A DNA stretch of 64,000 bases, taken from the NCBI GenBank assembly GCA_016931225.1, contig JAFGFE010000015.1, forward strand, positions 2,858-66,857. The letters run 5' to 3'. This DNA is from Candidatus Zymogenaceae bacterium (GTDB taxonomy: Bacteria > Desulfobacterota > Zymogenia > Zymogenales > Zymogenaceae). A program made the position numbers and the translations under genes. How positions within the stretch are numbered: the first letter of the stretch is position 1; each line of letters begins with the position of its first letter. The notes under the pieces were generated by a model. That model was not told the DNA's origin and made no database searches. It worked only from the letters and a program-made list of their open reading frames with translations. Shown here piece by piece: positions 5,421-60,768 of the stretch.

Positions 5421-5440
5421 TCATACGAAAAAGGTGATGG

Positions 5441-5899: not shown

Positions 5900-5923
5900 T
5901 AAAGCAGTAATACAGACCGGCCC

Positions 5924-7332: not shown

Positions 7333-7336
7333 AAAA

Positions 7337-7750: not shown

Positions 7751-7751
7751 T

Positions 7752-10041: not shown

Positions 10042-10051
10042 CGTGACTGCC

Positions 10052-26597: not shown

Positions 26598-26630
26598 GGT
26601 ATCCTCGCTTGAGGGGCTACAGGATTCGGT

Positions 26631-41329: not shown

Positions 41330-42170
41330 TGTCCTGACCGCACTGGGCGCCTCCCCGTACCACGGGAGGGGGCAGCACTTCCTGACCAATAGGAATATCG
41401 CCCAGCGCATCGTGGACATCACGGCGCCGGGACCGGAGAGTGTGGTGGTGGAAATCGGACCGGGGACCGGCGCCTTGACGGATCTGCTCACGGAACGGGC
41501 GGGCCGGGTGATCGCCATCGAGTCCGACCGAAAGCTCGCCTGTTACCTGACCGACGCCTTTCGGGACAGGGCCGAGATCGTCTTCGGCGACGCCCTGTCG
41601 TTTGATTACCGGGAGCTGGGAAAGGGGATCGGCGCTTCCTTCCTGGTGGTGGCGAATCTCCCCTATAATATTTCGACGGAGCTGATATTCAGGCTCCTCG
41701 ACGTCCGGGAGCATGTCGAAAGGATGGTCCTGATGCTCCAGAAGGAGGTGGCCCAAAGGCTCGTGGCGAAACCGGGGACGAAGGAGTACGGGGTGCTGAC
41801 GGTGTTGGTGACGATGCTGTGTGACGTGTCCACGGCCCTTTCCGTGGGACCGGGGAATTTCCACCCAAGGCCGAAGGTCGACTCCCGGGTCGTCGTGTTC
41901 GATATGCTCCGTGAATCACGGGTACCCGTCAAAGATATGCAGCTGTTCCGGCGGGTGGTTCGTGCGTCCTTCGGAACCAGGAGAAAGACCCTTCGCAATG
42001 CCCTTAGGTCCCTCTCGGATATCATCGAACGGGATGCGCTTTCAGAAATCGAGGGGATAACCGGACTGGATTTCACGAGAAGGGGGGAGACGCTGACCAT
42101 CGGCGAATTCGCGATTATCGCCGATACCCTGCATGACATCCTGCACCCGGATGCTCCTGATCAGTCATGA
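41313..42170 (+). CDS. rsmA: 16S rRNA (adenine1518/1519-N6)-dimethyltransferase
   Basis: 'GQHFLTNRNIAQRIV', the SAM motif 'VVEIGPGTGALT', and 'VVANLPYNISTELIFRLL'. Confidence 0.9.
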   Translation: MTKTSDVLTALGASPYHGRGQHFLTNRNIAQRIVDITAPGPESVVVEIGPGTGALTDLLTERAGRVIAIESDRKLACYLTDAFRDRAEIVFGDALSFDYRELGKGIGASFLVVANLPYNISTELIFRLLDVREHVERMVLMLQKEVAQRLVAKPGTKEYGVLTVLVTMLCDVSTALSVGPGNFHPRPKVDSRVVVFDMLRESRVPVKDMQLFRRVVRASFGTRRKTLRNALRSLSDIIERDALSEIEGITGLDFTRRGETLTIGEFAIIADTLHDILHPDAPDQS

Positions 42171-42281
42171 TCCGTCGGGGGAAGAAAGCGGATACCGTAT
42201 GGTGGGAGGCGTGCCGGCCGGGGTTCTGGGGATGGATGAAGGACTCACCACTGTCGTTGTGAAATCTGTCCGGGGATGTGC

Positions 42282-42905
42282 TTATTTTTTTTCCTTGATG
42301 ACGACCCGGGCAAAACCACCGACAAGCTTCTCGAATTCGACGGCGTCGTTTCTCTCCCCCACGATTTCCCCCCAGTGCATGGGAACGGCGCTCACGGCGT
42401 TCATGAGCTTCACAGCCCGGGCGGCCTCGGAGGCGCTCATGGTGTAGGTGCCGCCCACCGGGACAAGGGCAACGTCAGGCCCGATTCCCTCCATCTCAGG
42501 TATAACGTCTGTATCTCCGGTGTGGTAGATCTTGTTCCCGCCCATGGTGAGGACGTATCCGACCCACCGATTTTCCTTCGGATGAAACGACTTGTTCGTA
42601 TTGTACGCGGCGACGGCCGATACCCGGACACCCTTGACATCCAGGGTTTTGCCGGGCGCCGCACGAACCACATCGATATCGCCGGGGACATCCGCATCCC
42701 CGGTGATAACCAGTGTGGTGTCGGGGCCGGTGATTTTCTTGATATCCTCGGGGGAGTAGTGATCGTAATGGGTATGGGTGACGAGGATAAGGTCGGCGGT
42801 GGGGCCGTCGGAAAGATGAAAGGGGTCGAAATAGACGGTGATGTCTCCGTCGATGCGAAACGCCGCATGGCCGAGCCAGGATATGGTATCCATGATATCG
42901 TTCAT
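42282..42905 (-). CDS. MBL-fold metallo-hydrolase
   Basis: 'LILVTHTHYDHYSPEDI' and 'HTGDTD' metal ligands. 207 aa. Confidence 0.75.
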   Translation of the reverse strand: MNDIMDTISWLGHAAFRIDGDITVYFDPFHLSDGPTADLILVTHTHYDHYSPEDIKKITGPDTTLVITGDADVPGDIDVVRAAPGKTLDVKGVRVSAVAAYNTNKSFHPKENRWVGYVLTMGGNKIYHTGDTDVIPEMEGIGPDVALVPVGGTYTMSASEAARAVKLMNAVSAVPMHWGEIVGERNDAVEFEKLVGGFARVVIKEKK

Positions 42906-43366
42906 GACGTAGATATCTCCCGTAATGTTCCGATGAAATGAGTCTCCTTTTTTACAAAATACTATGCCGATACGGTCGTGTCAAGGGTCTTCCATGACGT
43001 CGTGAAGGAAAGGCGTGTGTGGGAGAAAAGGGGGAATGAGGGAGACGAAATCGTTGCATATATATTCCATTGAAATAAACATATGTTGATATTTATGTGT
43101 GTCGAGTCGCAGATTTCTTTTTTATATCTTGACACTTACTGGTGATTGTGATACTGTTTTTAGCATAAAATATTAAAAAAAGTATAGTATTTGCAATGTT
43201 CTTCAGGATGAAGGAAAGACCGTTCAAGAAGTCCTGTCGGGCGGCAATGTAATGCATTTGGGCCGATGGAAACGAACCGTTTTCGGTCATGAATGCATCA
43301 TTTAGTCAATATTCGCTTACATTACACATTTTGTAAAACGTTGATGACCCCGGAACAGGGAGAGAT

Positions 43367-43864
43367 GTGCTTCATCGCGGAAGACATTTTCAGGATTCAA
43401 ACAGGAATCTTGTTATTATTTTCTCGGTGGCTGATATCTTCTTCGCCCTCCAGGCTCAATACCTGGTGGAGATAATCCAGGTATCCGCCGTAGAGCCGGA
43501 GATGGCCGATGATAATTTTGTCGGATCGGTTAATCTCAGGGGATGGTCGATACCGGTATTCAATTTTCGAAAATTCATGCAACTAAGTGACGACATCACT
43601 GTTTCACCAGAGAATACGGCATTACTCAGTATGCTCGTGCTGAGAGGCGATCCGGGTGAATCAAAAAAGATACCATGGATAGGCATAGAAGCGGATCATA
43701 TCTCCGGTGTTGTGGATGAAACGGAATGTCCACAGTTCGGAATGCCGGATAAAGTCAAGGACGAGCAAAGCGACGTATACAAGGGAATTTTGTTACGCGA
43801 AGATACGGTGATTTACCTCCTCAATATCCCCTGGTTGGTTGATACGTTTTCGCCTTTACAATGA
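43367..43864 (+). CDS. CheW-like domain protein
   Basis: GTG start. 'YLVEIIQVSAVEPEMADDNFVGSVNLRGWSIPVFNFRKF' is the CheW core. Confidence 0.7.
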   Translation: MLHRGRHFQDSNRNLVIIFSVADIFFALQAQYLVEIIQVSAVEPEMADDNFVGSVNLRGWSIPVFNFRKFMQLSDDITVSPENTALLSMLVLRGDPGESKKIPWIGIEADHISGVVDETECPQFGMPDKVKDEQSDVYKGILLREDTVIYLLNIPWLVDTFSPLQ

Positions 43865-43885
43865 TAGAATACTCCCCCGGATTAT

Positions 43886-44311
43886 ATGGGATTACTGGAC
43901 GGAAACATTGAGAGGCAATATTTTGTCTTTACCCTGGGGTCAAGATATTTCGGTCTATCAATATCCCATGTACGAAAGGTTATTTCAGTGGAGAGGCTGT
44001 TTCATGCGCCTCTGCTGAAAGAGTATTACCTTGGTTTTTTTATTCACGAAGATGCTCCCGTACCGCTTATCAGCATCAAGAAGCGTCTTGGTTTGGGAGG
44101 AGAAGATATCGGGAAAATGTCGGTGTTGATCACCATCGGATCTGAGACGTTCGGTCTTTCAATCGACGGGAATTATCAGGTTGTAGAGATTGAAAACGAA
44201 CCGGAGCCGATACCCGAAAAATTTACCGGAGCGGTAAGAAAATACTTCATCGGACGCGGCGCAATGAATGAAATGAAATTTATAATCCTCAATGTTGAAG
44301 CATTGATGTAG
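43886..44311 (+). CDS. CheW-like domain protein (second copy)
   Basis: 'QYFVFTLGSRYFGLSISHVRKVISVERLFHAPLLKEYYLGFF' is CheW-like but divergent. 141 aa. Confidence 0.65.
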   Translation: MGLLDGNIERQYFVFTLGSRYFGLSISHVRKVISVERLFHAPLLKEYYLGFFIHEDAPVPLISIKKRLGLGGEDIGKMSVLITIGSETFGLSIDGNYQVVEIENEPEPIPEKFTGAVRKYFIGRGAMNEMKFIILNVEALM

Positions 44312-44382
44312 TATCGATTTGTTTTATGAGTATGGGTATTTTTTTATCGAAACCGAAGTTAAAGAAAAAACGGTAACACACT

Positions 44383-46290
44383 ATGTCAAAAAAGATTCTT
44401 TTGGCGGACGACAGTGTCACCATACAAAAAGTCGTCAGCATCACTCTCGCCCATGAAGACATCGACCTGACGATTGTCGATAACGGCGCGGAAGCGTTTG
44501 CAAAGGCACAGCAGATACAGCCTGATATTATTCTGCTTGACGTCGTTATGCCCGACAAGGATGGATATCAGGTGTGTGAAAAGATAAAGCAGATGCCGGA
44601 ACTTTCCCATATCCCGATTATCCTCCTGACCGGGACGTTTGAACCCTTTGATGAAGAAAAGGCGGAACAGGTCGGAGCGAATGATTACCTCAAGAAACCC
44701 TTTGAGTCCCACGCCCTTATCAATAAAATAAAGGAAATGTCGTTCAAGGGTGCCGGAACTCCCGCCGCATCGCCTGTGCGGCCGGAACATGGTGCACCTG
44801 GCGCTGCGGGAGATTCATCAGGTTTTATCATGGGTGGTGAGATGGAGATCGGATCGGACGCGGCGATCCCTCCTCAACCCAAAGTGGAAAAGTCCGGATT
44901 TGAAACACCCCGGGAATCAGCCCCGGAGATGCAGACACCAAAGGAAGCGCCCGTACAGAGAGGACAGTCAGAGGATATCTGGTCCGTCGAGGAATTTGAA
45001 GATATCGCAGGACCCGCTCAAAAGAGTGAGGATTTCACTCCGGTCCAGGAGGAGTCGGATCCCTGGGGAGATGTGACGATTGAAACCGATTCCGTCCCTG
45101 AAGGATTTGATATCGGATCGGATTATGCAGAAGCAACACCGCAATCGCGGGATGCCGGAGAGCCTTCCCGGACGGGTGAGAGTGCACGGATGGATTCGAG
45201 CGGCTTTGAACTTGGTGAAGAAATATCCGAAGACGAGCTGTCGCAGTTTCTGGATGAAGAGGGGCTTGACATCGACGGGGGGGATGAAGCGACACCCGAG
45301 TTTGTCGCGGCTCCGCTTTCTGAGGGAGAAGTCGGAGCGGATACATCCTTTGATGAGATCGAGTTGGTAGAGGGAGAGCGATCGGTCATTAGTGACGATT
45401 TCAATATGGCGGATTTCGAAGAACCGTCATTGGATACGGCGATGTCTGAAGAAAGAGACGGCGTATTCCAGTTGAGTGACGATGATATGGAAATCCCCCT
45501 GGAAGATGTGGAGGATATCAGCCTCGGAGACGGGATGGATATTTCGGCGAACTTTGATGATGATTTTTCCAGTGAGGCTGAAATTCAGGTATCAGGAGAT
45601 TTCGATGATGTGTCGGTCGAAGACACAGGCTCGGACGATGACTCCTTATCTCTCGATGACGTGGAGATACCGCCGGAATTCATGGAGGATATTTCCGAAG
45701 AAGAGCCGGATCTCGACCGGCGGGAAACGCCGGAATCCGCTTTCGAGATGGATGTGACAGAACCGTTTGAGCCGGAAACGAGAACGATTTTCGATGAAGT
45801 TGAAATGCCCGAAACATCCGGCAACGATGACATGTTCATTCCGGACGACTCCACAGATACTGATTTCCTCTGGGAAAACAATTCTCAAGGAGATGCGTCG
45901 AATCAGTTTACGGATGATATCGATGTCGACACCGCCGAGATTGATACATCCTTTTCAGAGAGAAGCGAAGAATTTGAAAGTCAGCACCGTTTCGAGTCGA
46001 CTCGAATGCCTGAAAGGCTTCAAGATGATTCGGAATTCGACATTCAGGAGGAAACGGCGAACGTCGATGAGCAGATTATAACACGGGCCATGGAGGAGGT
46101 AAGCTCCAGGGTGGCGGGCTCGATGCCCGGAGGTTTGGGCGGGGCCGAGCCGGGTACCGAAGAATATGACCAGGCGGTGAACAAAATCGCCCGTGAGATC
46201 ATTGAAAAGGTCGCATGGGAGGTGGTTCCCGAGCTGGCGGAGGTGCTGATAAAGGAAGAGATAAAGCGGCTTAAGGGAGAAAAGGGTTAA
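44383..46290 (+). CDS. response regulator: receiver domain + ~450-aa acidic disordered region + conserved C-terminal helix (RomR-like architecture)
   Basis: Canonical REC residues ('LLADDS', 'LLDVVMPDKDG', 'LLTG', 'KKPF'). Residues ~125-575 are very D/E-rich with repeated '[DE]-[VM]-E-[IM]-P-x-E' motifs. The last ~50 aa are 'AREIIEKVAWEVVPELAEVLIKEEIKRL'. Confidence 0.8.
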   Translation: MSKKILLADDSVTIQKVVSITLAHEDIDLTIVDNGAEAFAKAQQIQPDIILLDVVMPDKDGYQVCEKIKQMPELSHIPIILLTGTFEPFDEEKAEQVGANDYLKKPFESHALINKIKEMSFKGAGTPAASPVRPEHGAPGAAGDSSGFIMGGEMEIGSDAAIPPQPKVEKSGFETPRESAPEMQTPKEAPVQRGQSEDIWSVEEFEDIAGPAQKSEDFTPVQEESDPWGDVTIETDSVPEGFDIGSDYAEATPQSRDAGEPSRTGESARMDSSGFELGEEISEDELSQFLDEEGLDIDGGDEATPEFVAAPLSEGEVGADTSFDEIELVEGERSVISDDFNMADFEEPSLDTAMSEERDGVFQLSDDDMEIPLEDVEDISLGDGMDISANFDDDFSSEAEIQVSGDFDDVSVEDTGSDDDSLSLDDVEIPPEFMEDISEEEPDLDRRETPESAFEMDVTEPFEPETRTIFDEVEMPETSGNDDMFIPDDSTDTDFLWENNSQGDASNQFTDDIDVDTAEIDTSFSERSEEFESQHRFESTRMPERLQDDSEFDIQEETANVDEQIITRAMEEVSSRVAGSMPGGLGGAEPGTEEYDQAVNKIAREIIEKVAWEVVPELAEVLIKEEIKRLKGEKG

Positions 46291-46317
46291 TCGCCTTTTC
46301 ATAGCGCACTAAAAAAA

Positions 46318-46347
46318 CAGGGGAACACATATTCCCCTGATTTTTTT
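46318..46347. terminator. bidirectional rho-independent terminator
   Basis: A7 run, then a perfect 8-bp stem CAGGGGAA-CACATA-TTCCCCTG, then a T7 run. Confidence 0.8.
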
Positions 46348-46378
46348 ACATAGCGGACGACATACGAGATCACAGAAT

Positions 46379-49066
46379 GTGGAGATGAGCGGACAGAAAA
46401 TGAAGGAATCTACCGGATTGGACAGGGGATACGACCCCCGGGACATTGAAGACAAGTGGTATTCCGAGTGGGAAAAACAAGAAGTCTTTCGGGCCGATAA
46501 TACATCCACGGCATCACATTATTCAATCGTCATTCCGCCCCCAAACGTGACCGGTTCACTGCACATGGGGCACGCATTGAATAATACCCTCCAGGATATT
46601 CTTATTCGATATCACAGGATGCAGGGAAAAAATACATTATGGATGCCCGGCACCGATCACGCCGGCATCGCCACTCAGAACGTGGTGGAAAAAGAACTGG
46701 CCGGCGAAGGGAAAACAAGGCACGATCTGGGAAGGGATGCGTTCATCGAAAGGGTGTGGGAGTGGCGAAAACAGTACGGCGGCGTAATCATCAATCAGCT
46801 CAAGAAGCTCGGCGCGTCGTGCGACTGGAGCCGAGAGCGCTTTACCATGGACGAGGGGCTCTCTCGGGCGGTCAGGCTGGTATTCGTGAGCCTGTACGAA
46901 AAGGGACTCCTCTACCGGGACGACCGTATCATCAACTGGTGTCCCCGGTGTCACACGGCCCTGGCCGACCTTGAGGTCGAGCACGAGGACAGCGCCGGAA
47001 GTCTCTACTATATCCGGTACCCGGTGAAGGGTGATCCGAGTGATTTCGTCACCGTGGCGACGACCCGTCCCGAGACTATGTTCGGGGATACGGCGGTTGC
47101 GGTGAATCCGGACGACCCAAGATACACACGTCTCAAGGGAAAAACAGTCATCCTCCCGATCATCGAGAGGGAGCTGCCCGTCATATTCGACCCCTACGTC
47201 AGCACCGAATTCGGCACCGGCGCCCTGAAGATAACCCCCGCCCATGATCCGAACGACTTCGAGATCGGCAACGATCACGAGCTCGAGCGGGTGGTGGTCA
47301 TAAACGAGGACGGCACCATGAACGCCGACGCCGGTCCCTATGAGGGGCTCGACCGGTACGAGGCGAGGGAGCAGGTGCTTGAAGACCTGAAGGAACAGGG
47401 ACTCCTTGAGAAGATCGAGGCCTACACGGTACCACAGGGGCACTGCTATCGATGCCGCACGGTCATCGAGCCGTTGCTCTCCAAGCAGTGGTTCGTGAAC
47501 GCGGAAGTTCTGGCCGAGGAGGCGATCAGTGCCGTGGAGGACGGCAGGACGCGCATCGTTCCCGTCCAGTGGGAAAAGACATATTTCGAGTGGATGAGAA
47601 ACATCAGGCCCTGGTGCGTTTCCCGGCAGATATGGTGGGGACACCAGATACCCGCATGGTATTGCGACGAGTGCGGCGAGGTGATCGTAGCCATGGAGGA
47701 GCCGACCGACTGCACCGCCTGCAAGGCGAGCTCCCTCACCAGAGAAACCGACGTCCTGGATACCTGGTTCAGCTCGGCGCTCTGGCCTTTTTCGACCCTG
47801 GGGTGGCCGGATGAGACAAAAGACCTGGCGACCTACTACCCCACGTCGTGTCTCGTCACCGGCTTCGATATCCTCTTTTTCTGGGTGGCCCGGATGATGA
47901 TGATGGGCCTCTTCTGCATGAAGGAGGTCCCATTCACGGACGTCTACATTCACGCCCTCGTCAGGGACGAGCACGGCCAGAAGATGAGCAAGTCCAAGGG
48001 GAACATCATCGATCCCCTGGAGGTTATTGACAAGTTCGGTGCAGACGCCTTTCGGTTCGCACTGACGGCCTTCGCGGCCATGGGACGGGACGTCAGGCTG
48101 AGCGAGGGGCGAATCGAGGGATATCGATTCTTCGTCAATAAGCTCTGGAATGCGGCGCGGTTCGTCATGATGAATACGGGTGACGACTACCGTCCGGACT
48201 TCGATTTTGCGAAGCGTGAGTTGTCCCTGTCGGACCGGTGGATACTGGAGCGAACGGCCCAGGTCACGGAAGAGGTGCGCCGGGCGCTGGATACGTATGA
48301 ATTCAACGCCGCCGCGGGGGCGGCATATCAATTCGTCTGGCATGAATTCTGTGACTGGTACCTTGAGCTGAGCAAGATCTATCTCGGGTCCGAGACTCCG
48401 GAGGATAAGAAACGGAGTCAGGATGTCTTGATGTTCGTGCTCGATACGATCGTCCGGCTCCTGCACCCGATCATCCCGTTCGTGACCGAGGAGATATTTC
48501 AGGCCATCCCCAAATCTGCGGGAAGCATCGTGAAGGCGGAGTATCCCGATGCCTCCGGAATGCCGAGATTCCCGGACGCCGTCGATGAGTTCGACCGCGT
48601 ACAGAGCCTCATTACCGGCATACGGAACATTCGGGGCGAAATGAATATCCACCCGAAGAAGATGCTTTCGGCCATTGTGTCCTCACCGGACGCCGCGGTG
48701 CTCGACGGATTGCAGGACAATACCACGTATATCAAGACGCTGGCGGGCGTTGACTCCATCGAGTTCGGGGTGGATCTTCCCCAACCCGGCGCATCGGCCA
48801 CCGTCGTGACCGGTCCTCTGACGGTATACGTTCCTTTGATAGGGGTCATCGATTTTGATGAGGAAAAGGCCCGCCTTGAAAAGGAACTCTCAAAAGTCAC
48901 GGACGATCTATCCCGTGTGAGGAATAAGCTCTCCACCGAGAAATTCATCACGAAGGCTCCGGCTGAGGTGGTCCAAAAGGAGCGGGACAAGGAATCCACC
49001 CTCGTCTCGAAACAGGAGCGACTCACCGAAAGTATCGACCGGGTTGCGGAATATATCGGAAAATAG
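46379..49066 (+). CDS. valS: valine--tRNA ligase
   Basis: 'PPPNVTGSLHMGHALN' (HIGH region), 'KMSKSKGN', and a C-terminal coiled coil. 895 aa. Confidence 0.95.
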   Translation: MEMSGQKMKESTGLDRGYDPRDIEDKWYSEWEKQEVFRADNTSTASHYSIVIPPPNVTGSLHMGHALNNTLQDILIRYHRMQGKNTLWMPGTDHAGIATQNVVEKELAGEGKTRHDLGRDAFIERVWEWRKQYGGVIINQLKKLGASCDWSRERFTMDEGLSRAVRLVFVSLYEKGLLYRDDRIINWCPRCHTALADLEVEHEDSAGSLYYIRYPVKGDPSDFVTVATTRPETMFGDTAVAVNPDDPRYTRLKGKTVILPIIERELPVIFDPYVSTEFGTGALKITPAHDPNDFEIGNDHELERVVVINEDGTMNADAGPYEGLDRYEAREQVLEDLKEQGLLEKIEAYTVPQGHCYRCRTVIEPLLSKQWFVNAEVLAEEAISAVEDGRTRIVPVQWEKTYFEWMRNIRPWCVSRQIWWGHQIPAWYCDECGEVIVAMEEPTDCTACKASSLTRETDVLDTWFSSALWPFSTLGWPDETKDLATYYPTSCLVTGFDILFFWVARMMMMGLFCMKEVPFTDVYIHALVRDEHGQKMSKSKGNIIDPLEVIDKFGADAFRFALTAFAAMGRDVRLSEGRIEGYRFFVNKLWNAARFVMMNTGDDYRPDFDFAKRELSLSDRWILERTAQVTEEVRRALDTYEFNAAAGAAYQFVWHEFCDWYLELSKIYLGSETPEDKKRSQDVLMFVLDTIVRLLHPIIPFVTEEIFQAIPKSAGSIVKAEYPDASGMPRFPDAVDEFDRVQSLITGIRNIRGEMNIHPKKMLSAIVSSPDAAVLDGLQDNTTYIKTLAGVDSIEFGVDLPQPGASATVVTGPLTVYVPLIGVIDFDEEKARLEKELSKVTDDLSRVRNKLSTEKFITKAPAEVVQKERDKESTLVSKQERLTESIDRVAEYIGK

Positions 49067-49103
49067 AAACGGCCGACGGCCCGCATCATGTGGATAGAAA
49101 AAT

Positions 49104-49943
49104 ATGGAGCTCACGGCGCATACACGGGCACTCATAGAACTGGCCCTCATGGAGGACATGAGCGGCGGCGACATCACCACCCGGGCGACGATCACCGATG
49201 ACCATGGGTCGAGGGCGGTGGTCACCGCCAAGGAAGATATCGTGCTGGCGGGGATTGAGGTATTCAAAGCCGTTTTTAAACAGCTGGGGGGGGATGTTCT
49301 GTGCACCGAAAAAGTCACAGACGGGGATTTCATCTCCGGCGGGATGGCGGTTATGGAGGTGGAGGGGTCGACGGCGACGCTTCTCGGTGGCGAGCGGACG
49401 GCCCTGAATTTTCTCATGAGGCTCTCCGGCATTGCGACCCTCACACGGAGATGCGTGGATTCAATCGCGGGCACGGGAGCGACGGTGGTGGATACCAGGA
49501 AGACCACACCCGGTTGGAGATATCTGGAAAAATACGCCGTGAGGATGGGAGGGGGACGGAATCATAGGTATTCCCTGTCGGACGGCGTGCTCATCAAGGA
49601 CAATCATATTACCGCGTCGGGCGGGATAACAGAGGCGGTCAATCGGGCGAAAAAAACCGCTCCCCATACCTCGCGAATAGAGGTGGAGGTATCGACCACG
49701 GAACAGATAACCGAAGCGCTGAATGTCGGTGCGGATATTCTGCTTCTGGATAATATGACGCCCGATGAGATCGCCGATGCCGTAACACTCATAGACGGAC
49801 GGGCGTTGATCGAGGCGTCGGGCGGAATCACCCTCGAAAACATCAGGAAATATGCCGAGGCGGGGGTTGATTTCATATCATTGGGGGCGCTGACACACGG
49901 CGCTCGATCCGTTGATATCAATATGAAGATCGTGGCCGTATGA
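49104..49943 (+). CDS. nadC: nicotinate-nucleotide diphosphorylase (carboxylating)
   Basis: 'GGERTALNFLMRLSGIAT' and 'DTRKTTPGWRYLEKYAVRMGGGRNHR'. Confidence 0.9.
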   Translation: MELTAHTRALIELALMEDMSGGDITTRATITDDHGSRAVVTAKEDIVLAGIEVFKAVFKQLGGDVLCTEKVTDGDFISGGMAVMEVEGSTATLLGGERTALNFLMRLSGIATLTRRCVDSIAGTGATVVDTRKTTPGWRYLEKYAVRMGGGRNHRYSLSDGVLIKDNHITASGGITEAVNRAKKTAPHTSRIEVEVSTTEQITEALNVGADILLLDNMTPDEIADAVTLIDGRALIEASGGITLENIRKYAEAGVDFISLGALTHGARSVDINMKIVAV

Positions 49944-50743
49944 ACGAGGACCTTCCCTTTTTCATAAAATCAAGGCTCAAAACGCGTATAGTCGGGAGCG
50001 AGGTCGTCTATTATCGGGAGACCGATTCCACGAACGATGATGCCGTGCAATTTGCGTCCCGGGGCGTTGAAGAGGGTTGGGTGATTATCGCCGGAAATCA
50101 GCGATCCGGTAAGGGGAGGCGGGGGAAAACGTGGAACGCCCCGGGGGGGCAGAACGTGTATCTCTCACTGATTCTTCGCCCCCGGATATCGACGAAACGG
50201 GCATCGCTGTTGACGATCCTTGCGGCCCTGGCGGTTGCCGAAGTCCTGGGAGAATATATCTTAAAGGACAGTGGACAGGTCTCCATAAAATGGCCGAATG
50301 ATGTGATGATCGGCGATAAAAAAATATCCGGTATTCTCCTGGAGATGGGAAAGGATAAAAACAACGCATTGTTTTACGTTATCGGAATCGGCATTAATAT
50401 AAACGCCCGCATTCAGGATATGCCGGAGGCGATACGAAATATCGCCACGTCCCTCTACATGGAACTCGGATACGCGGTTTCAGTGAAGGATGTTCTTTTT
50501 AAGCTTCTGTACCGCCTCGATTACTGGTATCGTTTGTATTGCGGACAGAGGTTCGATGAGATCATCGCCCGGTTTCGGACATATGAAAACACCACCGGAA
50601 AACGGGTCAGTGTGATGGTAGCGGGAAACATCATCGAGGGGGAGGCCATCGGCGTAGATGATAACGGATTCTTGCATGTACGGGACGATTACGGCAAGGT
50701 GCACATATCGACTTCAGGTGAGCTGACTATTGAGGATGAATAA
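49940..50743 (+). CDS. birA: biotin--[acetyl-CoA-carboxylase] ligase (no N-terminal HTH domain)
   Basis: '[19 protein letters not shown]' biotin-binding loop. 267 aa, so it is a group I BPL without the repressor domain. Confidence 0.85.
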
Positions 50744-51512
50744 TATGCTGTTAGTGCTGGATATAGGAAATACCAATACCGTCGTCGGTGTGTATGACGG
50801 TGAAGATCTGGTCAGTGACTGGCGTGTTATGACGCTTCCCGAGCGGACGGCGGATGAATACGGAGTCCTGGTCCAGAGTCTCTACCATTCTTCCAGAATA
50901 AGCTCGAGGGATATCAAGGACATCATCGTTTCATGCGTGGTGCCGCCGATGGTCGGGATAGTAGATGAACTGTGCGAAAAGTATTTTCATCTGCATCCCA
51001 TGTTCGTTGAGCCGGGAATCAAGACCGGTATGCCGGTTCTCTACGACAATCCCCGGGAGGTGGGCGCGGATCGCATCGTCAACTCGGTTGCGGCGTATCG
51101 AAGGTGTCAAAGGGATCTGATAGTGGTTGATTTCGGTACGGCAACGACGTTCGATTATGTCAGCGCCAAGGGAGAATACCTCGGTGGAATTATTGCACCG
51201 GGTTTGACCACATCCAGCGAGGCGCTTTTCTCCCGGGCCAGCAAGCTGCCGAAGGTCGAGCTCGTCAGACCAAAGACGGTTATCGGAAAGAATACGATTC
51301 ACAGCATGCAAGCCGGAATCGTTTTCGGGTATGTTGATATGGTTGATGGTATCATTCAACGCATCAAGGATGAGACCGGCAGCGATCCATATGTCATCGC
51401 CACAGGGGGGCTTGCGGACCTGATAGCAAATGAATCGAAAATGATCCAGGAGGTGGATCATTACCTGACGCTGGAGGGTCTCAAGGAACTGTACAAGATG
51501 AACAAGGCGTAG
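50730..51512 (+). CDS. coaX: type III pantothenate kinase
   Basis: '[15 protein letters not shown]' ASKHA phosphate-1 motif. birA-coaX overlap. Confidence 0.85.
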
Positions 51513-53711: not shown

Positions 53712-53965
53712 CGGCATTCCCTGGGATTGAATCGAAGGCTTCCTGTCGCTCGCATGATGGTGTATAATTCGATAGTATACTTCGGCACCGTTATGTTTGA
53801 AGAGGTGTGCGGGTGAGAACGTTGTCGTGGCGATAACGTGAACATCGGTGGGGGTGGGAGAAGGCGATGGCGTTGTTGAATGCGGTTTCAAAGAACATAC
53901 ACCTACAAGCGAAAGAAAGTTTTTTCGCCGAGTGGGCGGAGCGGAGAACCGCTGCGGTTGATGGT

Positions 53966-54778
53966 ATGCCGGGAAACAGGCGGCATATAGAGACGCGGCG
54001 GTTTTTTCATTTCACACGATCTTTTCTGTTTCTGGTCTCTGCCTTTCTGCTGTTATCCGGATGTGAATCGGATCATACACCGAGCGAAAAACCTGAGGGG
54101 CATCTTGTTATAACCGACGACGAAATCCTTCTTACCCTGCCGCGGGAATCGACCGAGGAGCCGTATTCCACCGTATCCTCGGCACCGATAGATGAGAATA
54201 CCTTTTATGATTCGCTTTCCGATATTGGAGTCGAGAACGGGGTTCTTTCGGATGATGATTCCACATTAAAAGACGGGGATGATGGCGGCGTGACGACGAA
54301 CGAATCCCCCGATGATCGGGCGCTTTTTTCACTGCAGGTCGGGGCATTCATCTTCGATCGAAACCTGGAAAAACAGGCCGAAGAACTGGAGGAGCACGGG
54401 TTTACCCACTACGTGGATGAAACGGAGAGGGTGGTGTTGATGTTTTGTCCGATCGTATCCCGTGGACTTTCCAGGGACGGCGCGGAATCGTTCATGGAGC
54501 GATTTCCCACGGACGTCGTCGATCCGGTGATGATTCCGATGGAAAAAGGGGCGTTTGACGTCACTGCGGGGCTTTTTTATTATAGGGAGGATGCGGATGT
54601 GATCGCCGGACGCCTGAAGGATTTTGGCTATGATCCGACGATCGAAGAGAGAACGGTGGAAGTGGTGATAAAGCGATTGCGGATCGGGTATTATGAAGAA
54701 ATCGAACATGCAAAAAGTGATTCCCGGCTTTTGGAAAAACTGGGCTATGAGCCGATTATCGTGAAAGTAGAGAAGTGA
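53966..54778 (+). CDS. SPOR-domain lipoprotein (two SPOR-like repeats)
   Basis: Lipobox 'LLLSGC'. Two 'F/YSLQVGAF' / 'RLRIGYY' SPOR-like beta-alpha repeats in the C-terminal half. Start set at the internal ATG (MPGNRRH...); the ORF begins at 53867. Confidence 0.5.
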   Translation: MPGNRRHIETRRFFHFTRSFLFLVSAFLLLSGCESDHTPSEKPEGHLVITDDEILLTLPRESTEEPYSTVSSAPIDENTFYDSLSDIGVENGVLSDDDSTLKDGDDGGVTTNESPDDRALFSLQVGAFIFDRNLEKQAEELEEHGFTHYVDETERVVLMFCPIVSRGLSRDGAESFMERFPTDVVDPVMIPMEKGAFDVTAGLFYYREDADVIAGRLKDFGYDPTIEERTVEVVIKRLRIGYYEEIEHAKSDSRLLEKLGYEPIIVKVEK

Positions 54779-55836
54779 AAATCAAACTCTCAAAGGAAGC
54801 GCTGAAATTCGTTCAACCGAACTCTCCCAGACAGGTCAAGCTCATGGCGGCCTCGGGATCGATCCCGCTCAATCCGAAAGAGCTCGTCGTGGTGCTGTAT
54901 GTATTGTGCACCGACAAGGATGTGGAGATCAAAAAAAAGGCGATTCAGACACTCAGAACATTCTCAAAAAAGCTGATCGTCAATGTAATGGATGACAATC
55001 TTCATCCGGGCATTATAGATTTTCTTGTTCGATATCATGTAGACAGCCGCTCCTTCTATGAGAAGGCCGTTTTCAATAAAAACACGTCGGAAAAAACCAT
55101 TTTGTTTCTGGCTTCGCTTACCGATCGCGACCTGTTGGAGCTGATCATCTCCAACCAGGAACGGTTACTGCAATCAAGGCTTCTGTATGACACACTTATC
55201 AAGAATGAGGCGGTTTCCGGCGCACTGAGGAGCAAATTAGTGGAGCTGGTGGAGGGACGGTATGTCGCAGACTCCCAGGTGGAAAAAATGCCTGTGGAAA
55301 TCGAGCGTCAAAAAACGGAAGATGACACGGAAGACGAGTCGGAGGATCTGGCCGACCGGGAGACGGAAGAGACTCCGAAAGAGGGCGAGGACGAGGAAAG
55401 TCAAGAAGGGGACGATGCCGATCTCAACCTTGACCAGAAAATCAGAAAGATGTCCGTGGCGGAAAGAATCAGATACGCCTCTCTCGGGAACAAGGAGGCA
55501 CGTACTCTTCTTTTGAGAGATGCCAGCAGGACGGTCATTAGAGCGGTTATGAACAGCCCGAAGCTGACAGAGGAGGAGGTCATTGCGATCGCCAAATCGA
55601 AACAGAGCAATGATGAAGCCGTACGAATGGTAACCAGAAATAAGGAATGGATGAAGATATACGCGGTGAAACACGGGCTTGTGAGCAACCCGAAAACACC
55701 AACGGGCATCGCAATGAGGCTTATTCCATATTTGAACGTAAAAGATATAAAAGAGATTGCGAAGAGCAAGAACGTACCGGGCGTTATAGCAAATACGGCG
55801 AAAAAGGCGTTGCAGAGCAAGGAAAAGAAACACTAA
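54775..55836 (+). CDS. hypothetical protein with 'NPKTP/NSPK'-capped helical repeats and a central acidic linker, candidate partner of the downstream MglA-like GTPase
   Basis: GTG start overlapping the upstream stop (GTGA). Repeats at both termini ('PNSPRQVKLMAASG', 'LNPKELVVVLY', 'MNSPKLTEEEVIAIAK', 'SNPKTPTGIAMRLI'). Acidic block 'EDDTEDESEDLADRETEE'. Confidence 0.45.
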   Translation: MKIKLSKEALKFVQPNSPRQVKLMAASGSIPLNPKELVVVLYVLCTDKDVEIKKKAIQTLRTFSKKLIVNVMDDNLHPGIIDFLVRYHVDSRSFYEKAVFNKNTSEKTILFLASLTDRDLLELIISNQERLLQSRLLYDTLIKNEAVSGALRSKLVELVEGRYVADSQVEKMPVEIERQKTEDDTEDESEDLADRETEETPKEGEDEESQEGDDADLNLDQKIRKMSVAERIRYASLGNKEARTLLLRDASRTVIRAVMNSPKLTEEEVIAIAKSKQSNDEAVRMVTRNKEWMKIYAVKHGLVSNPKTPTGIAMRLIPYLNVKDIKEIAKSKNVPGVIANTAKKALQSKEKKH

Positions 55837-55852
55837 CAAAGGATGGCGGAGA

Positions 55853-56935
55853 ATGGCACTGATTAACTATGCAAATAAAGAGATAAACGCCAAGATTGTC
55901 TATTATGGTCCCGGGCTTTCGGGAAAGACGACGAACATTCAGTTTATCCATTCAAAGCTGAAACCGGAACATCGTGGAAAGCTGATCACTCTGCCCACTC
56001 AGACCGACAGGACGCTCTTTTTCGATTTTTTGCCGGTTGAAATACCGAACGTCAAGGGATTTACCACACGGTTCCACTTGTATACGGTTCCGGGACAGGT
56101 TTTCTATAACGCCACCAGGAAGATGGTTCTCAAGGGTGTCGACGGTGTGGTATTCGTCGCCGATTCCCAGGTCGAGAAATTGGACGATAACATCGAGAGC
56201 CTCAAGAACCTCGATGAGAACCTCCAGGAATACGGCAAGTCCATCAAGGCTCTTCCCCTCGTTATTCAGTACAACAAACGGGACCTGAAAAACATCAGCA
56301 AGATCATCGATTTGACGAAACAAATCAATCCATTGGGATATCCTTCCTTCGAAGCGATCGCGACAGAGGGAAAGGGAGTGATGGAAACCCTGGCCGCCAT
56401 TTCACGTCAAGTACTCAAGCATCTGAAAGAATCCTACGACTCTCAGAAAATTCTGCGCATGTCCGAAGAACATGCAAAGATTATCGGGAAGGAGAAAGCA
56501 CAACAAGTTGTCACGGAAGAGGTGGGGCAGGCGGATCGGTCATCCGTCATGCTTGGCGGCGGTGGATTGACAAATGGTATTGATATTAATAAAGTGAACT
56601 CAGTTATCGATGATCGGATAGACAGGAAGGACGATCAGCTTGGGGTGATGGGGGAATTCGATAACAACAACGATTCGACCGCCGGTGCTGCTTCAGATTC
56701 GGCGCCGGCTCCCGGCGGGGCGGCGGCCGAGACGGCCACCCCGCAACCGGGCGACTTCAAAACCCCAAGGGAGGCTGAACATGTCGAGTTGGTTCTTGGG
56801 GGAGAGATAGAGCGGATGGGTGTCAGTACATTCAAAATACCATTGACATTTCAGGTCGATGCCATAAAAAAAGACATCGTATTGAACATTTCCGTTCAAA
56901 TTACCGACAGTGAAAAGGACCGGGACATCTTTTAA
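55853..56935 (+). CDS. MglA-family small GTPase with ~170-aa C-terminal extension
   Basis: Residues 1-190 are collinear with MglA ('KIVYYGPGLSGKTTN', 'TDRTLFFDFLP', 'YTVPGQVFY', 'VIQYNKRDL'). A Gly/Ala/Ser-rich linker and a ~55-aa beta-rich terminal module follow. Confidence 0.8.
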   Translation: MALINYANKEINAKIVYYGPGLSGKTTNIQFIHSKLKPEHRGKLITLPTQTDRTLFFDFLPVEIPNVKGFTTRFHLYTVPGQVFYNATRKMVLKGVDGVVFVADSQVEKLDDNIESLKNLDENLQEYGKSIKALPLVIQYNKRDLKNISKIIDLTKQINPLGYPSFEAIATEGKGVMETLAAISRQVLKHLKESYDSQKILRMSEEHAKIIGKEKAQQVVTEEVGQADRSSVMLGGGGLTNGIDINKVNSVIDDRIDRKDDQLGVMGEFDNNNDSTAGAASDSAPAPGGAAAETATPQPGDFKTPREAEHVELVLGGEIERMGVSTFKIPLTFQVDAIKKDIVLNISVQITDSEKDRDIF

Positions 56936-57143: not shown

Positions 57144-57596
57144 TTACGAAGTCTCCTGCTTATCTGTGTCCGGTTTCTTTTTGGGCGTGGTGGTTTTCTT
57201 GGGGGTGGTGCTCTTCTTGGGAGCAGTGGATGTTTTCGGCGCTTCCTTCGGCTCCGGCTGATCGCTCATGTGTTCCTTGATACTGCTGATCTCCTTTTCG
57301 ATGGCGTCGACCTCGGCCTTGTATCCCTTTATCTCTTCGATCGCCGCTTTCACATCCGGATCAGTCAGGATCGCGGTTTCCTTTCCATCCTCGATGTGTT
57401 CGTAGACGAGTCCGCCGAGCTTGGTAAATCCCTGGTGAACCTTTCGCTGAATGGTCGACAGGTCGATTTTCTTTCTCAGTATCTTGCCCTGGCTCTCAAC
57501 CTGTTTGCTGAGTTTTCCCAGTTCATCCTTGAGCACCCCAAATCCCTCGACGGCGTTTGTCTTGATGTCCTCCCACAGTTCATTGATTTCACTCAT
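57144..57596 (-). CDS. coiled-coil protein with histone-H1-like Lys/Thr/Pro-rich C-terminal tail
   Basis: N-terminal heptad-rich region. C-terminal 'APKKSTTPKKTTTPKKKPD' repeats. Confidence 0.5.
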   Translation of the reverse strand: MSEINELWEDIKTNAVEGFGVLKDELGKLSKQVESQGKILRKKIDLSTIQRKVHQGFTKLGGLVYEHIEDGKETAILTDPDVKAAIEEIKGYKAEVDAIEKEISSIKEHMSDQPEPKEAPKTSTAPKKSTTPKKTTTPKKKPDTDKQETS

Positions 57597-59632: not shown

Positions 59633-59713
59633 CGATCCGTTCGTGAAATACATCGAAGAGACCTCGTTTCACGGAACAGGGAACGGATCGGCGGGGAGGA
59701 TATTGAAACATAC

Positions 59714-60712: not shown

Positions 60713-60768
60713 AAAAAGGGTAGGTGTCTATTTTTTATGTGAATGACGAATGACGGCGCACCCGTGAC

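What the first reader, a model, noticed from the sequence alone, without database searches (positions are those of the whole stretch)
43367..46290. RomR-like response regulator (REC + ~450-residue acidic disordered region with repeated motifs + conserved C-terminal helix) preceded by two CheW-like genes
The domain order of a receiver, a long disordered region and a short conserved C-terminal helix matches the RomR polarity regulator that recruits MglA in Myxococcus.

In this protein the disordered region is extremely Asp/Glu-rich. It contains at least three copies of a short motif, '[DE]-[VM]-E-[IM]-P-x-E' ('DMEIPLEDVED', 'DVEIPPEFMED', 'EVEMPETSGND').

The C-terminus 'IAREIIEKVAWEVVPELAEVLIKEEIKRL' is strongly helical and amphipathic. 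Two CheW-like scaffolds lie directly upstream, with no CheA or MCP in the window.

With the MglA-like GTPase about 9 kb downstream, this may be a polarity or motility-type regulatory module.
Basis: partly seen in the sequence, partly recalled or inferred. Interest (0 to 1): 0.6.

Follow-up and report, generated by a model that had tools for sequence, protein, structure and literature searches.

The report
RomR polarity regulator with CheW partners
This is the counterpart, in an uncultured Zymogenaceae bacterium, of the well-studied Myxococcus romR cell-polarity locus (two CheW-like domains, then RomR, then valS); it is a new member of a known family with an unusually long and acidic linker, not a new kind of system.

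Summary
Window 43367-46290 encodes two CheW-like proteins (165 and 141 aa) and a 635-aa response regulator. The regulator has a receiver domain, a 473-residue acidic linker (29% Asp+Glu, net charge -117) and a C-terminal helix.

The RomR reading is supported. I recovered M. xanthus romR from a genome scan. The window protein matches it in the receiver (45% identity, E=1e-38) and in RomR-C (55% over 40 aa, E=3e-11). The invariant Trp and Pro are present. So are the counterparts of E390, K391, W394 and E402 (MglC-binding helix) and of V17 and E108 (RomX contacts).

The gene order is also the M. xanthus one. MXAN_4462 is a single protein with two CheW domains, followed by romR and valS. By profile comparison, CheW-A matches its N-terminal domain and CheW-B its C-terminal domain, so the window carries a split version.

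A true MglA with a 166-aa extension lies 9.5 kb downstream. That spacing recurs in two relatives.

New details:
- The linker is extreme in length and charge.
- Acidic-type RomRs share a Trp motif in the linker.
- The CheW-RomR linkage recurs in several lineages and is functionally unstudied.

Verdict: new member of a known kind, of modest interest.

The parts
43160..43188 (+). Promoter-like site in the 460-bp AT-rich intergenic region upstream of CheW-A. This is weak evidence.
   Evidence: Consensus scan gives a 9/12 match, and the number of sites in the region equals the shuffle expectation. Sequence read.
43367..43864 (+). CheW-like protein A (165 aa, GTG start). It is the counterpart of the N-terminal CheW domain of M. 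xanthus MXAN_4462. It keeps the NLRG motif, which holds the equivalent of E. coli CheW R62.
   Evidence: Pfam CheW 39.9 bits. hhalign of the A family against the MXAN_4462 N-domain family: 95.5%, E=1.4e-8; against the C-domain: 5.9%. Alignment to T. maritima CheW. NCBI calls the same 165-aa gene.
43886..44311 (+). CheW-like protein B (141 aa). It is the counterpart of the C-terminal CheW domain of MXAN_4462. The canonical NLRG is replaced by IHED, and the family keeps a conserved His at this site.
   Evidence: Pfam CheW 59.6 bits. BLASTP to the MXAN_4462 C-domain E=2e-4. hhalign B vs C: 95.9%, E=5.5e-9; B vs N: 1.2%. Alignment to E. coli CheW.
44383..44742 (+). RomR receiver (REC) domain, residues 1-120. 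It has D9, D10, D53, T83 and K105, plus V17 and E108, the RomX-contact residues of M. xanthus RomR.
   Evidence: Pfam Response_reg 86.9 bits. 45% identity to the M. xanthus RomR REC, E=1e-38. Invariant columns in the family alignment. pLDDT above 90. RomX contacts from bioRxiv 10.1101/2024.02.20.581209.
44740..46158 (+). Acidic disordered linker, residues 120-592: 29.4% D+E, net charge -117.
   Evidence: Composition. pLDDT below 50. Comparison with 95 other RomR linkers.
44971..45006 (+). Conserved acidic Trp motif EDIWSVEEFEDI, residues 197-208.
   Evidence: Conserved across the Zymogenaceae-type clade. W200 is at least 90% conserved in a 37-sequence alignment that includes Geobacter-type proteins. 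Related motifs occur in all acidic-linker RomRs and in no Pro-rich Myxococcaceae linker.
45202..45264 (+). Conserved island GFELGEEISEDELSQFLDEEG, residues 274-294, containing a short predicted helix at 283-292.
   Evidence: Conservation. AF2 helix with block pLDDT 68.
45484..45810 (+). Stretch holding the three [DE][VM]E[IM]P motifs: DMEIP at residue 368, DVEIP at 426, EVEMP at 472.
   Evidence: 3 observed against 0.01 expected in shuffles. Conserved only in orthologues of 60-67% identity.
46156..46290 (+). RomR-C helix, residues 592-635, with W612, P616, E608, K609 and E620. These correspond to W394, P398, E390, K391 and E402 of M. xanthus RomR.
   Evidence: 55% identity to RomR-C, E=3e-11. 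Invariant W, E, V, P, L, E columns. AF2 helix 592-634. MglC-binding residues from PMC12719032.
46318..46339 (+). Terminator-like hairpin followed by a T-run, between romR and valS. It suggests that cheW-A, cheW-B and romR form one transcription unit.
   Evidence: Consensus scan: 8-pair stem with 5 GC pairs. Sequence read.
46379..49066 (+). valS, the conserved downstream neighbour of romR (equivalent to MXAN_4460).
   Evidence: ORF. A valS homologue lies within 1.5 kb downstream of romR in 70 of 82 loci with enough downstream sequence. Leonardy 2007 Fig. 1A.
55853..56935 (+). 'Long MglA' (context, not part of the operon). It has an MglA G domain (residues 1-194, with R53 and T78-x-P-G-Q82), then about 110 disordered residues and a small beta element.
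   Evidence: PDB phmmer to M. xanthus MglA E=3.8e-73. Invariant columns. AF2. The same position relative to romR is seen in L123 and L124.

Best explanation
The 635-aa protein is the RomR orthologue of a Candidatus Zymogenaceae bacterium. The three genes at 43367-46290 correspond to the M. xanthus locus MXAN_4462 (two CheW domains) plus romR, with valS next, as in Myxococcus.

**Shown here**
- Family membership of the receiver and of RomR-C.
- A linker predicted to be disordered.
- Colinear correspondence of CheW-A and CheW-B to the two domains of MXAN_4462.
- Conserved synteny.
- A genuine MglA nearby.

**Inferred from the M. xanthus work**
- The C-terminal helix oligomerises RomR. It also docks onto a roadblock-type MglC dimer, and that interaction recruits MglB.
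- The receiver binds a RomX-like adaptor that holds MglA-GTP.
- The long acidic linker is a flexible, lineage-specific spacer and second localisation determinant. It carries short linear motifs.
- Together these would place MglA at one cell pole. The phosphorylatable receiver (D53) would allow the polarity to be switched.

**Most speculative step**
The two co-transcribed CheW-like proteins most likely connect RomR to a chemosensory array or kinase encoded elsewhere in the genome.
For: **RomR membership**
- REC is 45% identical and RomR-C 55% identical to M. xanthus RomR.
- RomR-C has the invariant W and P and is Glu-rich, as defined in PMC3441718.
- E608, K609, W612 and E620 correspond to E390, K391, W394 and E402, the MglC-binding residues (PMC12719032).
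- V17 and E108, the RomX contacts, are invariant.
- The architecture is REC, then a disordered region, then a helix.
- Geobacter homologues of the same family (P0054; Keilberg lists GSU2046) are hit at 1e-45.

**Locus correspondence**
- hhalign gives A to N at 95.5% and B to C at 95.9%, against 5.9% and 1.2% for the cross pairs.
- The M. xanthus order is 2xCheW, romR, valS (PMC2034494).
- The split pair also occurs in L004, L005, L043, L044, L071, L095 and L100. The fused form occurs in Myxococcaceae and in L085, L092 and L107.

**MglA**
- The G domain matches at E=3.8e-73, with R53 and Q82 present.
- It lies at the same distance from romR in two relatives.

**Published functions of RomR-C**
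- Oligomerisation, the MglC interface and polar targeting: PMC10329633.
Against: - No MglB, MglC, RomX, CheA or MCP was found in the 64-kb window. The rest of the polarity module is therefore unverified for this organism.
- The nearby MglA is atypical. It has a 166-aa extension and no adjacent mglB.
- MglA is separated from romR by five housekeeping genes. The shared spacing in relatives may reflect general collinearity rather than a functional link.
- The linker is chemically the opposite of the M. xanthus one: acidic with net charge -117, against Pro-rich with net charge +9. Linker-dependent functions may therefore differ.
- Bdellovibrio RomR has diverged in function. It does not relocalise, and phosphorylation is dispensable (PMC6428892).
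- Most RomR loci (36 of 70 informative ones) have no CheW neighbour, so CheW is not required for RomR function in general.
- Nothing is known about motility in this uncultured lineage.
Confidence: 0.8

Rival explanations
1. It is a RomR-family protein, but in this lineage it works outside motility polarity (for example in growth, division or pole identity), as proposed for Bdellovibrio RomR. The 'long MglA' nearby would then belong to a separate SPOR-linked module.
For: - Bdellovibrio RomR does not relocalise and appears to act in growth (PMC6428892).
- The MglA here sits in an apparent operon with a SPOR-domain protein and an uncharacterised helical protein, not with mglB.
- No motility genes were seen in the window.
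- The linker chemistry is very different from that of M. xanthus.
Against: - The residues that bind MglC and RomX in M. xanthus are all conserved.
- The phospho-acceptor residues are intact.
- The M. xanthus-type gene order with the CheW domains is kept.
Confidence: 0.2
2. The two CheW-like genes are inherited neighbours with no direct functional tie to RomR. They serve a chemosensory array elsewhere, and the adjacency is historical.
For: - 36 of 70 informative RomR loci, including Geobacter-type and Acidobacteria-type, lack them.
- romR also keeps valS, nadC, birA and coaX as neighbours across phyla, and a functional link to those is implausible. Old synteny can therefore persist at this locus without function.
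- No paper in the library beyond a 2007 figure legend reports a role for MXAN_4462 in RomR function.
Against: - The pair stays immediately upstream on the same strand, with gaps of 16-120 bp, in lineages whose RomR receivers and linkers have diverged strongly.
- The linkage survives a gene fusion or fission event.
- A terminator-like hairpin follows romR, not the CheW genes.
- No CheA or MCP gene accompanies them in the M. xanthus and Zymogenaceae-type loci whose flanking genes were annotated. This is unusual for ordinary CheW genes.
Confidence: 0.3
3. It is a generic CheY/FrzZ-like chemotaxis response regulator whose acidic tail is compositional drift, not a RomR.
For: - It is adjacent to CheW-like genes.
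- JGI annotations of homologues read 'CheY-like chemotaxis protein'.
- Pfam finds only Response_reg.
Against: - The RomR-C match to M. xanthus RomR has E=3e-11, with invariant W and P.
- The receiver is closer to RomR (135 bits) than to any solved receiver, CheY included (at most 78 bits).
- The linker has conserved islands.
- The locus is syntenic with romR.
Confidence: 0.02

Closest known systems
RomR of Myxococcus xanthus (MXAN_4461)
   Same: - The same three-part architecture.
- Receiver 45% identical, with D53, V17 and E108.
- RomR-C 55% identical, with the Trp, Pro and Glu/Lys residues used for MglC binding.
- The same neighbours: two CheW domains upstream and valS downstream.
   Different: - 635 aa against 420 aa.
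- The linker is 473 residues, acidic (29% D+E, net -117) and Phe-rich. The M. xanthus linker is about 250 residues, Pro-rich (34% P) and slightly basic.
- The linker carries a Trp motif that is absent in Myxococcus.
- The partner proteins are unverified here.
MXAN_4462 of M. xanthus (two CheW domains; required for fruiting body formation according to unpublished work cited in Leonardy et al. 2007)
   Same: - It sits directly upstream of romR on the same strand.
- Domain-by-domain correspondence: A to N and B to C.
- The first domain keeps the LRG motif, and the second has a His in place of it.
   Different: It is one 271-aa polypeptide in Myxococcaceae, against two separate genes 21 bp apart here and in seven other loci.
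Geobacter/Pelobacter-type RomR (e.g. GSU2046 in Keilberg et al. 2012)
   Same: - An acidic linker with the DDLWGAFELEE-type Trp motif.
- RomR-C.
- valS downstream.
   Different: - There are no CheW genes upstream.
- The linker is shorter (about 240 aa, net about -45).
RomR of Bdellovibrio bacteriovorus
   Same: It belongs to the same family and is linked to MglA (PMC3983030, PMC6428892).
   Different: It is reported as a single-gene operon, non-relocalising, with phosphorylation dispensable. Here the phospho-acceptor residues and the CheW partners are retained.
FrzA/FrzB CheW-like proteins of the Frz chemosensory system
   Same: They have the CheW-like fold and belong to a pathway that feeds into the MglA/RomR polarity module (PMC4546325).
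   Different: The Frz CheWs are encoded in the frz cluster with a CheA (FrzE) and an MCP (FrzCD). CheW-A and CheW-B sit next to romR with no kinase or receptor gene nearby.

Membership tests
RomR (as defined by Keilberg et al. 2012, PMC3441718) | An N-terminal receiver domain of the RomR subfamily | tested here: met
   45% identity, 135 bits, E=1e-38 to the M. xanthus RomR REC. The best solved receiver domain scores 78 bits. D9, D10, D53, T83 and K105 are present.
RomR (as defined by Keilberg et al. 2012, PMC3441718) | A conserved alpha-helical, Glu-rich C-terminal region (RomR-C) with invariant Trp and Pro | tested here: met
   55% identity over 40 aa, E=3e-11. W612 and P616 fall in invariant columns of an 11-sequence alignment that includes M. 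xanthus and Vulgatibacter. AF2 predicts a helix at 592-634.
RomR (as defined by Keilberg et al. 2012, PMC3441718) | An unstructured, poorly conserved linker of lineage-specific composition between REC and RomR-C | tested here: met
   pLDDT is below 50 for 128-560. Composition is lineage-specific across 96 RomR proteins.
RomR (as defined by Keilberg et al. 2012, PMC3441718) | Residues of RomR-C shown to bind MglC (W394; E390, K391, E402 conserved) | tested here: met
   E608, K609, W612 and E620 are in register.
RomR (as defined by Keilberg et al. 2012, PMC3441718) | REC residues contacting RomX (V17, E108) | tested here: met
   V17 and E108 are invariant in the 37-sequence alignment.
RomR (as defined by Keilberg et al. 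2012, PMC3441718) | Co-occurrence with MglA and MglB in the genome | tested here: inconclusive
   An MglA is present in the window. No roadblock-type MglB or MglC was found among the window ORFs tested. The rest of the genome is not available.
RomR (as defined by Keilberg et al. 2012, PMC3441718) | Polar, switching localisation, and recruitment of MglA | not testable with these tools
   This needs microscopy or biochemistry.
CheW-like domain proteins (PF01584) | A match to the CheW-like domain model above the curated threshold | tested here: met
   A scores 39.9 bits and B 59.6 bits, against a cut-off of 23.5. B aligns with E. coli CheW over its full length, E about 1e-7.
Canonical CheW coupling protein | The conserved Arg of the NLRG motif (E. 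coli CheW R62; its role in receptor coupling is from my own knowledge of the CheW literature) | tested here: inconclusive
   CheW-A keeps NLRG. CheW-B has IHED there, and the corresponding MXAN_4462 C-domain has PHDQ.
Canonical CheW coupling protein | Encoded with, or working with, a CheA kinase and an MCP | tested here: not met
   There is no CheA or MCP in the window. None appears in the annotated flanks of the M. xanthus locus or of the Zymogenaceae-type loci L001, L004 and L005. The flanks of the other CheW-linked loci were scanned only for RomR-C, REC, ValRS and CheW-like ORFs. Elsewhere in the genome could not be tested.
MglA small GTPase | P-loop GxxxxGKT, the intrinsic Arg finger (R53) and TxPGQ (Q82) instead of DxxGQ | tested here: met
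   GPGLSGKTT, D52-R53-T54 and T78-V-P-G-Q82 are all in invariant columns. E=3.8e-73 to M. xanthus MglA over residues 1-194.

The most novel reading that the evidence does not exclude
The two CheW-like domains next to romR are a dedicated RomR partner that has been overlooked. The linkage occurs in Myxococcaceae, in Zymogenaceae-type bacteria and in other uncultured lineages, and it is kept through a gene fusion or fission.

The first domain keeps the receptor-coupling Arg and the second has lost it. They could tether RomR's phosphorylatable receiver to a chemosensory array or kinase. That would supply the missing route by which RomR receives signals, since its kinase is still unidentified in M. 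xanthus.

The acidic Trp motif in the linker (EDIWSVEEF, DDLWGAFELEE, EELWESF) would then be a further docking site.
Probability: 0.3. Interest if true: 0.6.

Novelty: new member of a known kind. Interest (0 to 1): 0.3.

Why it matters
RomR is a central scaffold of the bacterial front-rear polarity switch. How it receives signals, and what its linker does, are still open questions in M. xanthus.

This locus adds no new kind of system, but it gives comparative leverage in three ways:
- The pairing of two CheW domains with RomR is old. It survives a gene split and strong divergence of the linker, which makes MXAN_4462 a concrete and easily tested candidate for the input side of RomR.
- RomR linkers fall into two chemically opposite classes, Pro-rich/basic and acidic. 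The acidic class shares a Trp-containing motif.
- romR-valS(-nadC-birA-coaX) synteny is a convenient marker for finding RomR in metagenomes, where its low-complexity linker often breaks gene calls.

Tried and rejected
- **PDB sequence search with the C-terminal 65 aa.** Only chance hits came back (cystatin, E=0.15). No RomR-C chain is deposited.
- **Full-text search for the RomR N-terminal peptide.** It found nothing. The M. xanthus sequence was obtained instead by scanning genomes with a published romR primer.
- **The profile search with RomR-C.** It returned mostly short fragments of under 93 aa. On inspection these are truncated gene calls of RomR C-termini, not a family of small proteins.
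- **Pairwise BLASTP of CheW-A against MXAN_4462.** It was not significant (E=0.3). Only profile-profile comparison resolved the relationship. The iterated HMM searches merged the CheW subfamilies and were not used as evidence of orthology.
- **A 691-aa ORF upstream of romR in L085.** It looked like a possible informative domain fusion. It carries only CheW and overlaps a long opposite-strand ORF, so it is an over-extended ORF call in GC-rich DNA.
- **Hydrophobic moment of the C-terminal helix.** It is not distinguishable from shuffles.
- **DNA tandem repeats in the gene and Rfam families in 42000-47000.** None were found.
- **Pfam on the MglA extension and on the 353-aa upstream protein.** Nothing was significant.
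- **PDB search of concatenated unassigned small ORFs for RomX, MglB or MglC.** The only hits were artefacts of my poly-Gly spacers matching scFv linkers.
- **The neighbour-joining tree of REC plus RomR-C.** It rests on about 160 columns. I use it only as a hint that the CheW-linked loci cluster together.


Full report
**What is there**

Window 43367-46290 (+ strand) holds three ORFs with short gaps between them: 43367-43864 (165 aa, GTG start), 43886-44311 (141 aa) and 44383-46290 (635 aa). valS follows at 46379-49066, then nadC, birA, coaX and fusA. Upstream, on the other strand, is a metallo-beta-lactamase-fold gene. Before that come rsmA, a DUF2062 gene and tsaD.

Identical proteins are on record from a Candidatus Zymogenaceae MAG. 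They are named 'chemotaxis protein CheW' (twice) and 'response regulator'.

Both small proteins pass the Pfam CheW threshold, at 39.9 and 59.6 bits against a cut-off of 23.5. The large one has only a receiver domain, at residues 5-117.

A terminator-like hairpin with a T-run lies at 46318-46339, between the regulator and valS. A 460-bp AT-rich spacer precedes the first CheW gene. The three genes therefore look like one transcription unit, though this rests on consensus scans only.

**Check of the observation**

The region between the receiver and the C-terminal helix (residues 120-592) has these properties:
- 29.4% Asp+Glu and 4.7% Lys+Arg
- net charge -117
- 5.7% Phe

AlphaFold2 with a 37-sequence alignment gave:
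- pLDDT above 90 for residues 1-120
- pLDDT below 50 for nearly all of 128-560
- a short helix at 283-292
- helices at 561-579 and 592-634

The core motif [DE][VM]E[IM]P occurs three times, against 0.01 expected in shuffles. There is no DNA-level tandem repeat. The hydrophobic moment of the C-terminal helix is unremarkable. With those two small corrections, the description is accurate.

**Is it RomR?**

Keilberg et al. 2012 define RomR by three features (PMC3441718):
- its receiver domain
- an unconserved unstructured linker of lineage-specific composition
- a conserved helical, Glu-rich RomR-C with invariant Trp and Pro

They list homologues in Geobacter (GSU2046 and others), Acidobacteria, Deferribacterales and Aquificales.

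No RomR-C chain is in the PDB. I therefore took a romR primer from their Table S2 and scanned species-representative genomes with it. This returned 36 loci, almost all labelled Myxococcaceae or Archangiaceae, including M. xanthus AM003 (L036).

Its 419-aa RomR ends in ...SREVIEKIAWEVVPQLAETIIREELERLIKDRETQH. BLASTP of the window protein against it gives two results:
- receiver: 45% identity, 135 bits, E=1e-38
- last 40 residues: 55% identity, E=3e-11

The best solved receiver domain reaches only 78 bits.

Several functionally mapped residues are conserved:
- W612, P616, E608, K609 and E620 are in register with W394, P398, E390, K391 and E402. W394 is essential for MglC binding, and the others are conserved contacts (PMC12719032).
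- V17 and E108, which contact RomX in M. xanthus (bioRxiv 10.1101/2024.02.20.581209), are invariant in the family alignment.
- So are D9, D10, D53 and K105.

Every sequence-level feature that defines RomR is therefore met.

**The CheW genes**

In M. xanthus, the gene directly upstream of romR encodes a 271-aa protein with two CheW-like domains (L036 5384-6199). It is preceded by a divergently transcribed REC-GGDEF gene.

This is the map in Fig. 1A of Leonardy et al. 2007: MXAN4460 is ValRS, MXAN4462 has two CheW domains and MXAN4463 is REC-GGDEF. That paper adds that MXAN4462 is needed for fruiting body formation, citing unpublished work (PMC2034494). No other paper in the searchable library mentions the gene.

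Pairwise BLASTP links CheW-B weakly to the second domain (E=2e-4) and does not link CheW-A to anything. I therefore built four clean alignments from the fetched loci:
- first genes of split pairs (A)
- second genes of split pairs (B)
- N-terminal domains of fused proteins (N)
- C-terminal domains of fused proteins (C)

Profile-profile comparison then resolves the relationship:

| Pair | Probability | E-value |
|---|---|---|
| A to N | 95.5% | 1.4e-8 |
| B to C | 95.9% | 5.5e-9 |
| A to C | 5.9% | 0.0064 |
| B to N | 1.2% | 0.045 |

The two window genes are therefore a colinear split version of MXAN_4462, or MXAN_4462 is a fusion of them.

A shared signature supports this. The A/N family keeps the LRG of the canonical NLRG motif. 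The Arg there corresponds to E. coli CheW R62, and its importance for receptor coupling is from my own knowledge of the CheW literature. The B/C family has a conserved His and no Arg at that site: IHED here and PHDQ in M. xanthus.

**How widespread is the arrangement?**

I gathered 80 metagenomic loci with a RomR-C profile, the 36 loci from the primer scan and six loci from exact-protein look-ups. I scanned all of them with profiles for RomR-C, REC, ValRS and the CheW families.

- **valS.** It lies within 1.5 kb downstream of romR in 70 of 82 loci that have at least 600 bp of downstream sequence. In Zymogenaceae-type and Vicinamibacteria loci, the run romR-valS-nadC-birA-coaX is kept.
- **CheW genes.** Of 70 loci that are informative on the upstream side:
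  - about 22 have the fused two-CheW gene (the primer-scan loci plus L085, L092 and L107)
  - 8 have the split pair (window, L043, L044, L004, L005, L071, L095, L100)
  - 5 are partial
  - 36 have none; these carry Geobacter-like acidic or Acidobacteria-like Pro-rich linkers
- **Tree.** A rough neighbour-joining tree puts the CheW-linked loci in one large clade, with the Geobacter type nested inside it. This hints at loss in Geobacter, but the tree is weak.
- **Kinase or receptor.** No CheA or MCP gene appears in the annotated flanks of the M. xanthus locus or of the Zymogenaceae-type loci L001, L004 and L005. None appears among the window ORFs tested.

**The linker in context**

Across 96 RomR proteins, the linkers fall into classes:

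| Type | Composition | Net charge |
|---|---|---|
| Myxococcaceae and many soil (Acidobacteria-like) | about 30-38% Pro | +5 to +14 |
| Geobacter | about 15-24% D+E | -37 to -60 |
| Zymogenaceae | 27-32% D+E | -52 to -125 |

The window protein and its closest relative (L043) have the longest and most negative linkers in the sample. This agrees with Keilberg's statement that the linker is lineage-specific.

The linker is not featureless, however. Two islands are conserved through the wider clade: EDIWSVEEFEDI (197-208) and GFELGEEISEDEL.QFL.EE (274-294, partly helical in the model). The first has evident counterparts in every acidic-type RomR:
- EDDLWGAFELEE in the Geobacter type
- EEELWESFAFEE and EEDFWGTMMEE in L100 and L071

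It is absent from all Myxococcaceae linkers and from all but one of the other Pro-rich linkers. They are conserved only among orthologues of 60-67% identity.

**MglA**

The protein at 55853-56935 is a genuine MglA over residues 1-194 (E=3.8e-73 to M. xanthus MglA). It has the P-loop, R53 and T-x-P-G-Q82. It then continues for 166 residues:
- about 110 residues are predicted disordered
- residues 311-347 form a small beta element
- neither part has a Pfam match

Proteins of this 'long MglA' type (300-430 aa) are common in delta-type MAGs.

In the window and in two relatives (L123, L124) it follows a SPOR-domain protein and a helical protein of about 320-358 aa with no family assignment. It sits at the same distance downstream of romR-valS-nadC-birA-coaX-fusA. 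The proximity to romR is therefore conserved within this lineage. Because housekeeping genes intervene, it may only reflect collinearity.

I found no roadblock-type MglB or MglC and no RomX in the window.

**Mechanism**

The family assignment and the synteny are shown here. By homology with M. xanthus, I infer the following:
- The C-terminal helix oligomerises the protein. It also binds a positively charged cleft of an MglC-type roadblock dimer, and that interaction recruits MglB (PMC10329633; PMC12719032).
- The receiver binds a RomX-type adaptor that holds MglA-GTP. Whether RomRX acts as an exchange factor or as an effector is disputed (PMC13408092).

The function of the linker is unknown. 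In M. xanthus the linker is a second pole-targeting determinant and is required for motility.

The role of the CheW-like pair is the most speculative step. In M. xanthus the RomR kinase has never been identified. [quoted passage not shown] A conserved pair of CheW-like domains next to romR is therefore a natural candidate adaptor between RomR and a chemosensory array. The alternative is that they are merely inherited neighbours, like valS. This cannot be excluded with sequence data alone.

**Verdict**

What it found is the Zymogenaceae orthologue of a well-characterised locus, with a gene order already published for Myxococcus in 2007.

It is a new member of a known kind. The modest points of interest are:
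- the extreme acidic linker and its conserved Trp motif
- the split or fused two-CheW partner, conserved across lineages but functionally unstudied
- the long MglA nearby

Noticed in passing
window 53867-56935 (also L123 8152-11086, L124 8091-11161): There is an apparent three-gene unit: a SPOR-domain protein, a helical protein of 320-358 aa with no family, and a 'long MglA'. The long MglA is an MglA G domain followed by a disordered stretch and a small C-terminal beta element at residues 311-347. No mglB is adjacent. Long MglAs of 300-430 aa are common in delta-type MAGs.
   Followed up: partly
window 44383-51512; L004, L005, L006, L123, L124: The run romR-valS-nadC-birA-coaX is conserved from Zymogenaceae-type genomes to a Vicinamibacteria (Acidobacteria) genome. 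romR-valS alone holds in 70 of 82 loci, including Myxococcaceae and Geobacter. No functional reason for linkage between a polarity regulator and valyl-tRNA synthetase is apparent.
   Followed up: partly
window 44971-45006 (RR residues 197-208); L002, L047-L049, L060, L065, L071, L100 and others: The acidic Trp motif shared by all acidic-linker RomRs has W followed by F at +3 in several lineages (LWGAF, LWESF). This resembles the xWxxF (NWETF-type) pentapeptide at chemoreceptor C-termini that tethers CheR and CheB (my own knowledge). Here the motif is internal, so this is a resemblance only.
   Followed up: no
P0170 (Vulgatibacter sp., partial, 78 aa): This fragment carries two consecutive copies of the RomR-C core (ERIAWEVVPQLTE... 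and ERIAWEVVPELTE...), so RomR-C is duplicated in at least one Myxococcota lineage.
   Followed up: no
P0121-P0240, e.g. P0142 (52 aa on a 3.4-Mb contig): Public protein sets contain many 'hypothetical proteins' of 40-93 aa that are just the RomR C-terminus. Gene callers apparently start late inside the low-complexity linker. Some carry unrelated automatic names, such as DUF1192, endonuclease III or CO dehydrogenase subunit G.
   Followed up: partly
L020 5499-7762: In one MAG (uncultured delta proteobacterium MFD05674.bin.2.184) the two-CheW gene and romR read as one 746-aa ORF, with the second CheW domain in other frames. This is probably a frameshift or an assembly error.
   Followed up: no
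window 57144-57596 (-), and L123 11153-11560 (-): A conserved small protein with no family lies convergent to the long MglA. In the window it is 150 aa: a helical N-terminal part and a Lys/Pro/Thr-rich tail (...PKKSTTPKKTTTPKKKP...). No PDB or Pfam match was found.
   Followed up: partly
window 3466-8246, 10016-11812 and 24537-28640: Ordinary context genes are present. One run is rpoN, hpf, a PTS EIIA(Ntr)-type gene, an HPr-kinase-like gene, then mannose-type PTS EIIA/EIIB and PTS enzyme I. Two adjacent glycoside hydrolase family 2 genes lie on the minus strand. A MoxR-like AAA ATPase, an unassigned 332-aa ORF and a transglutaminase (TgpA) lie at 58649-62880.
   Followed up: no
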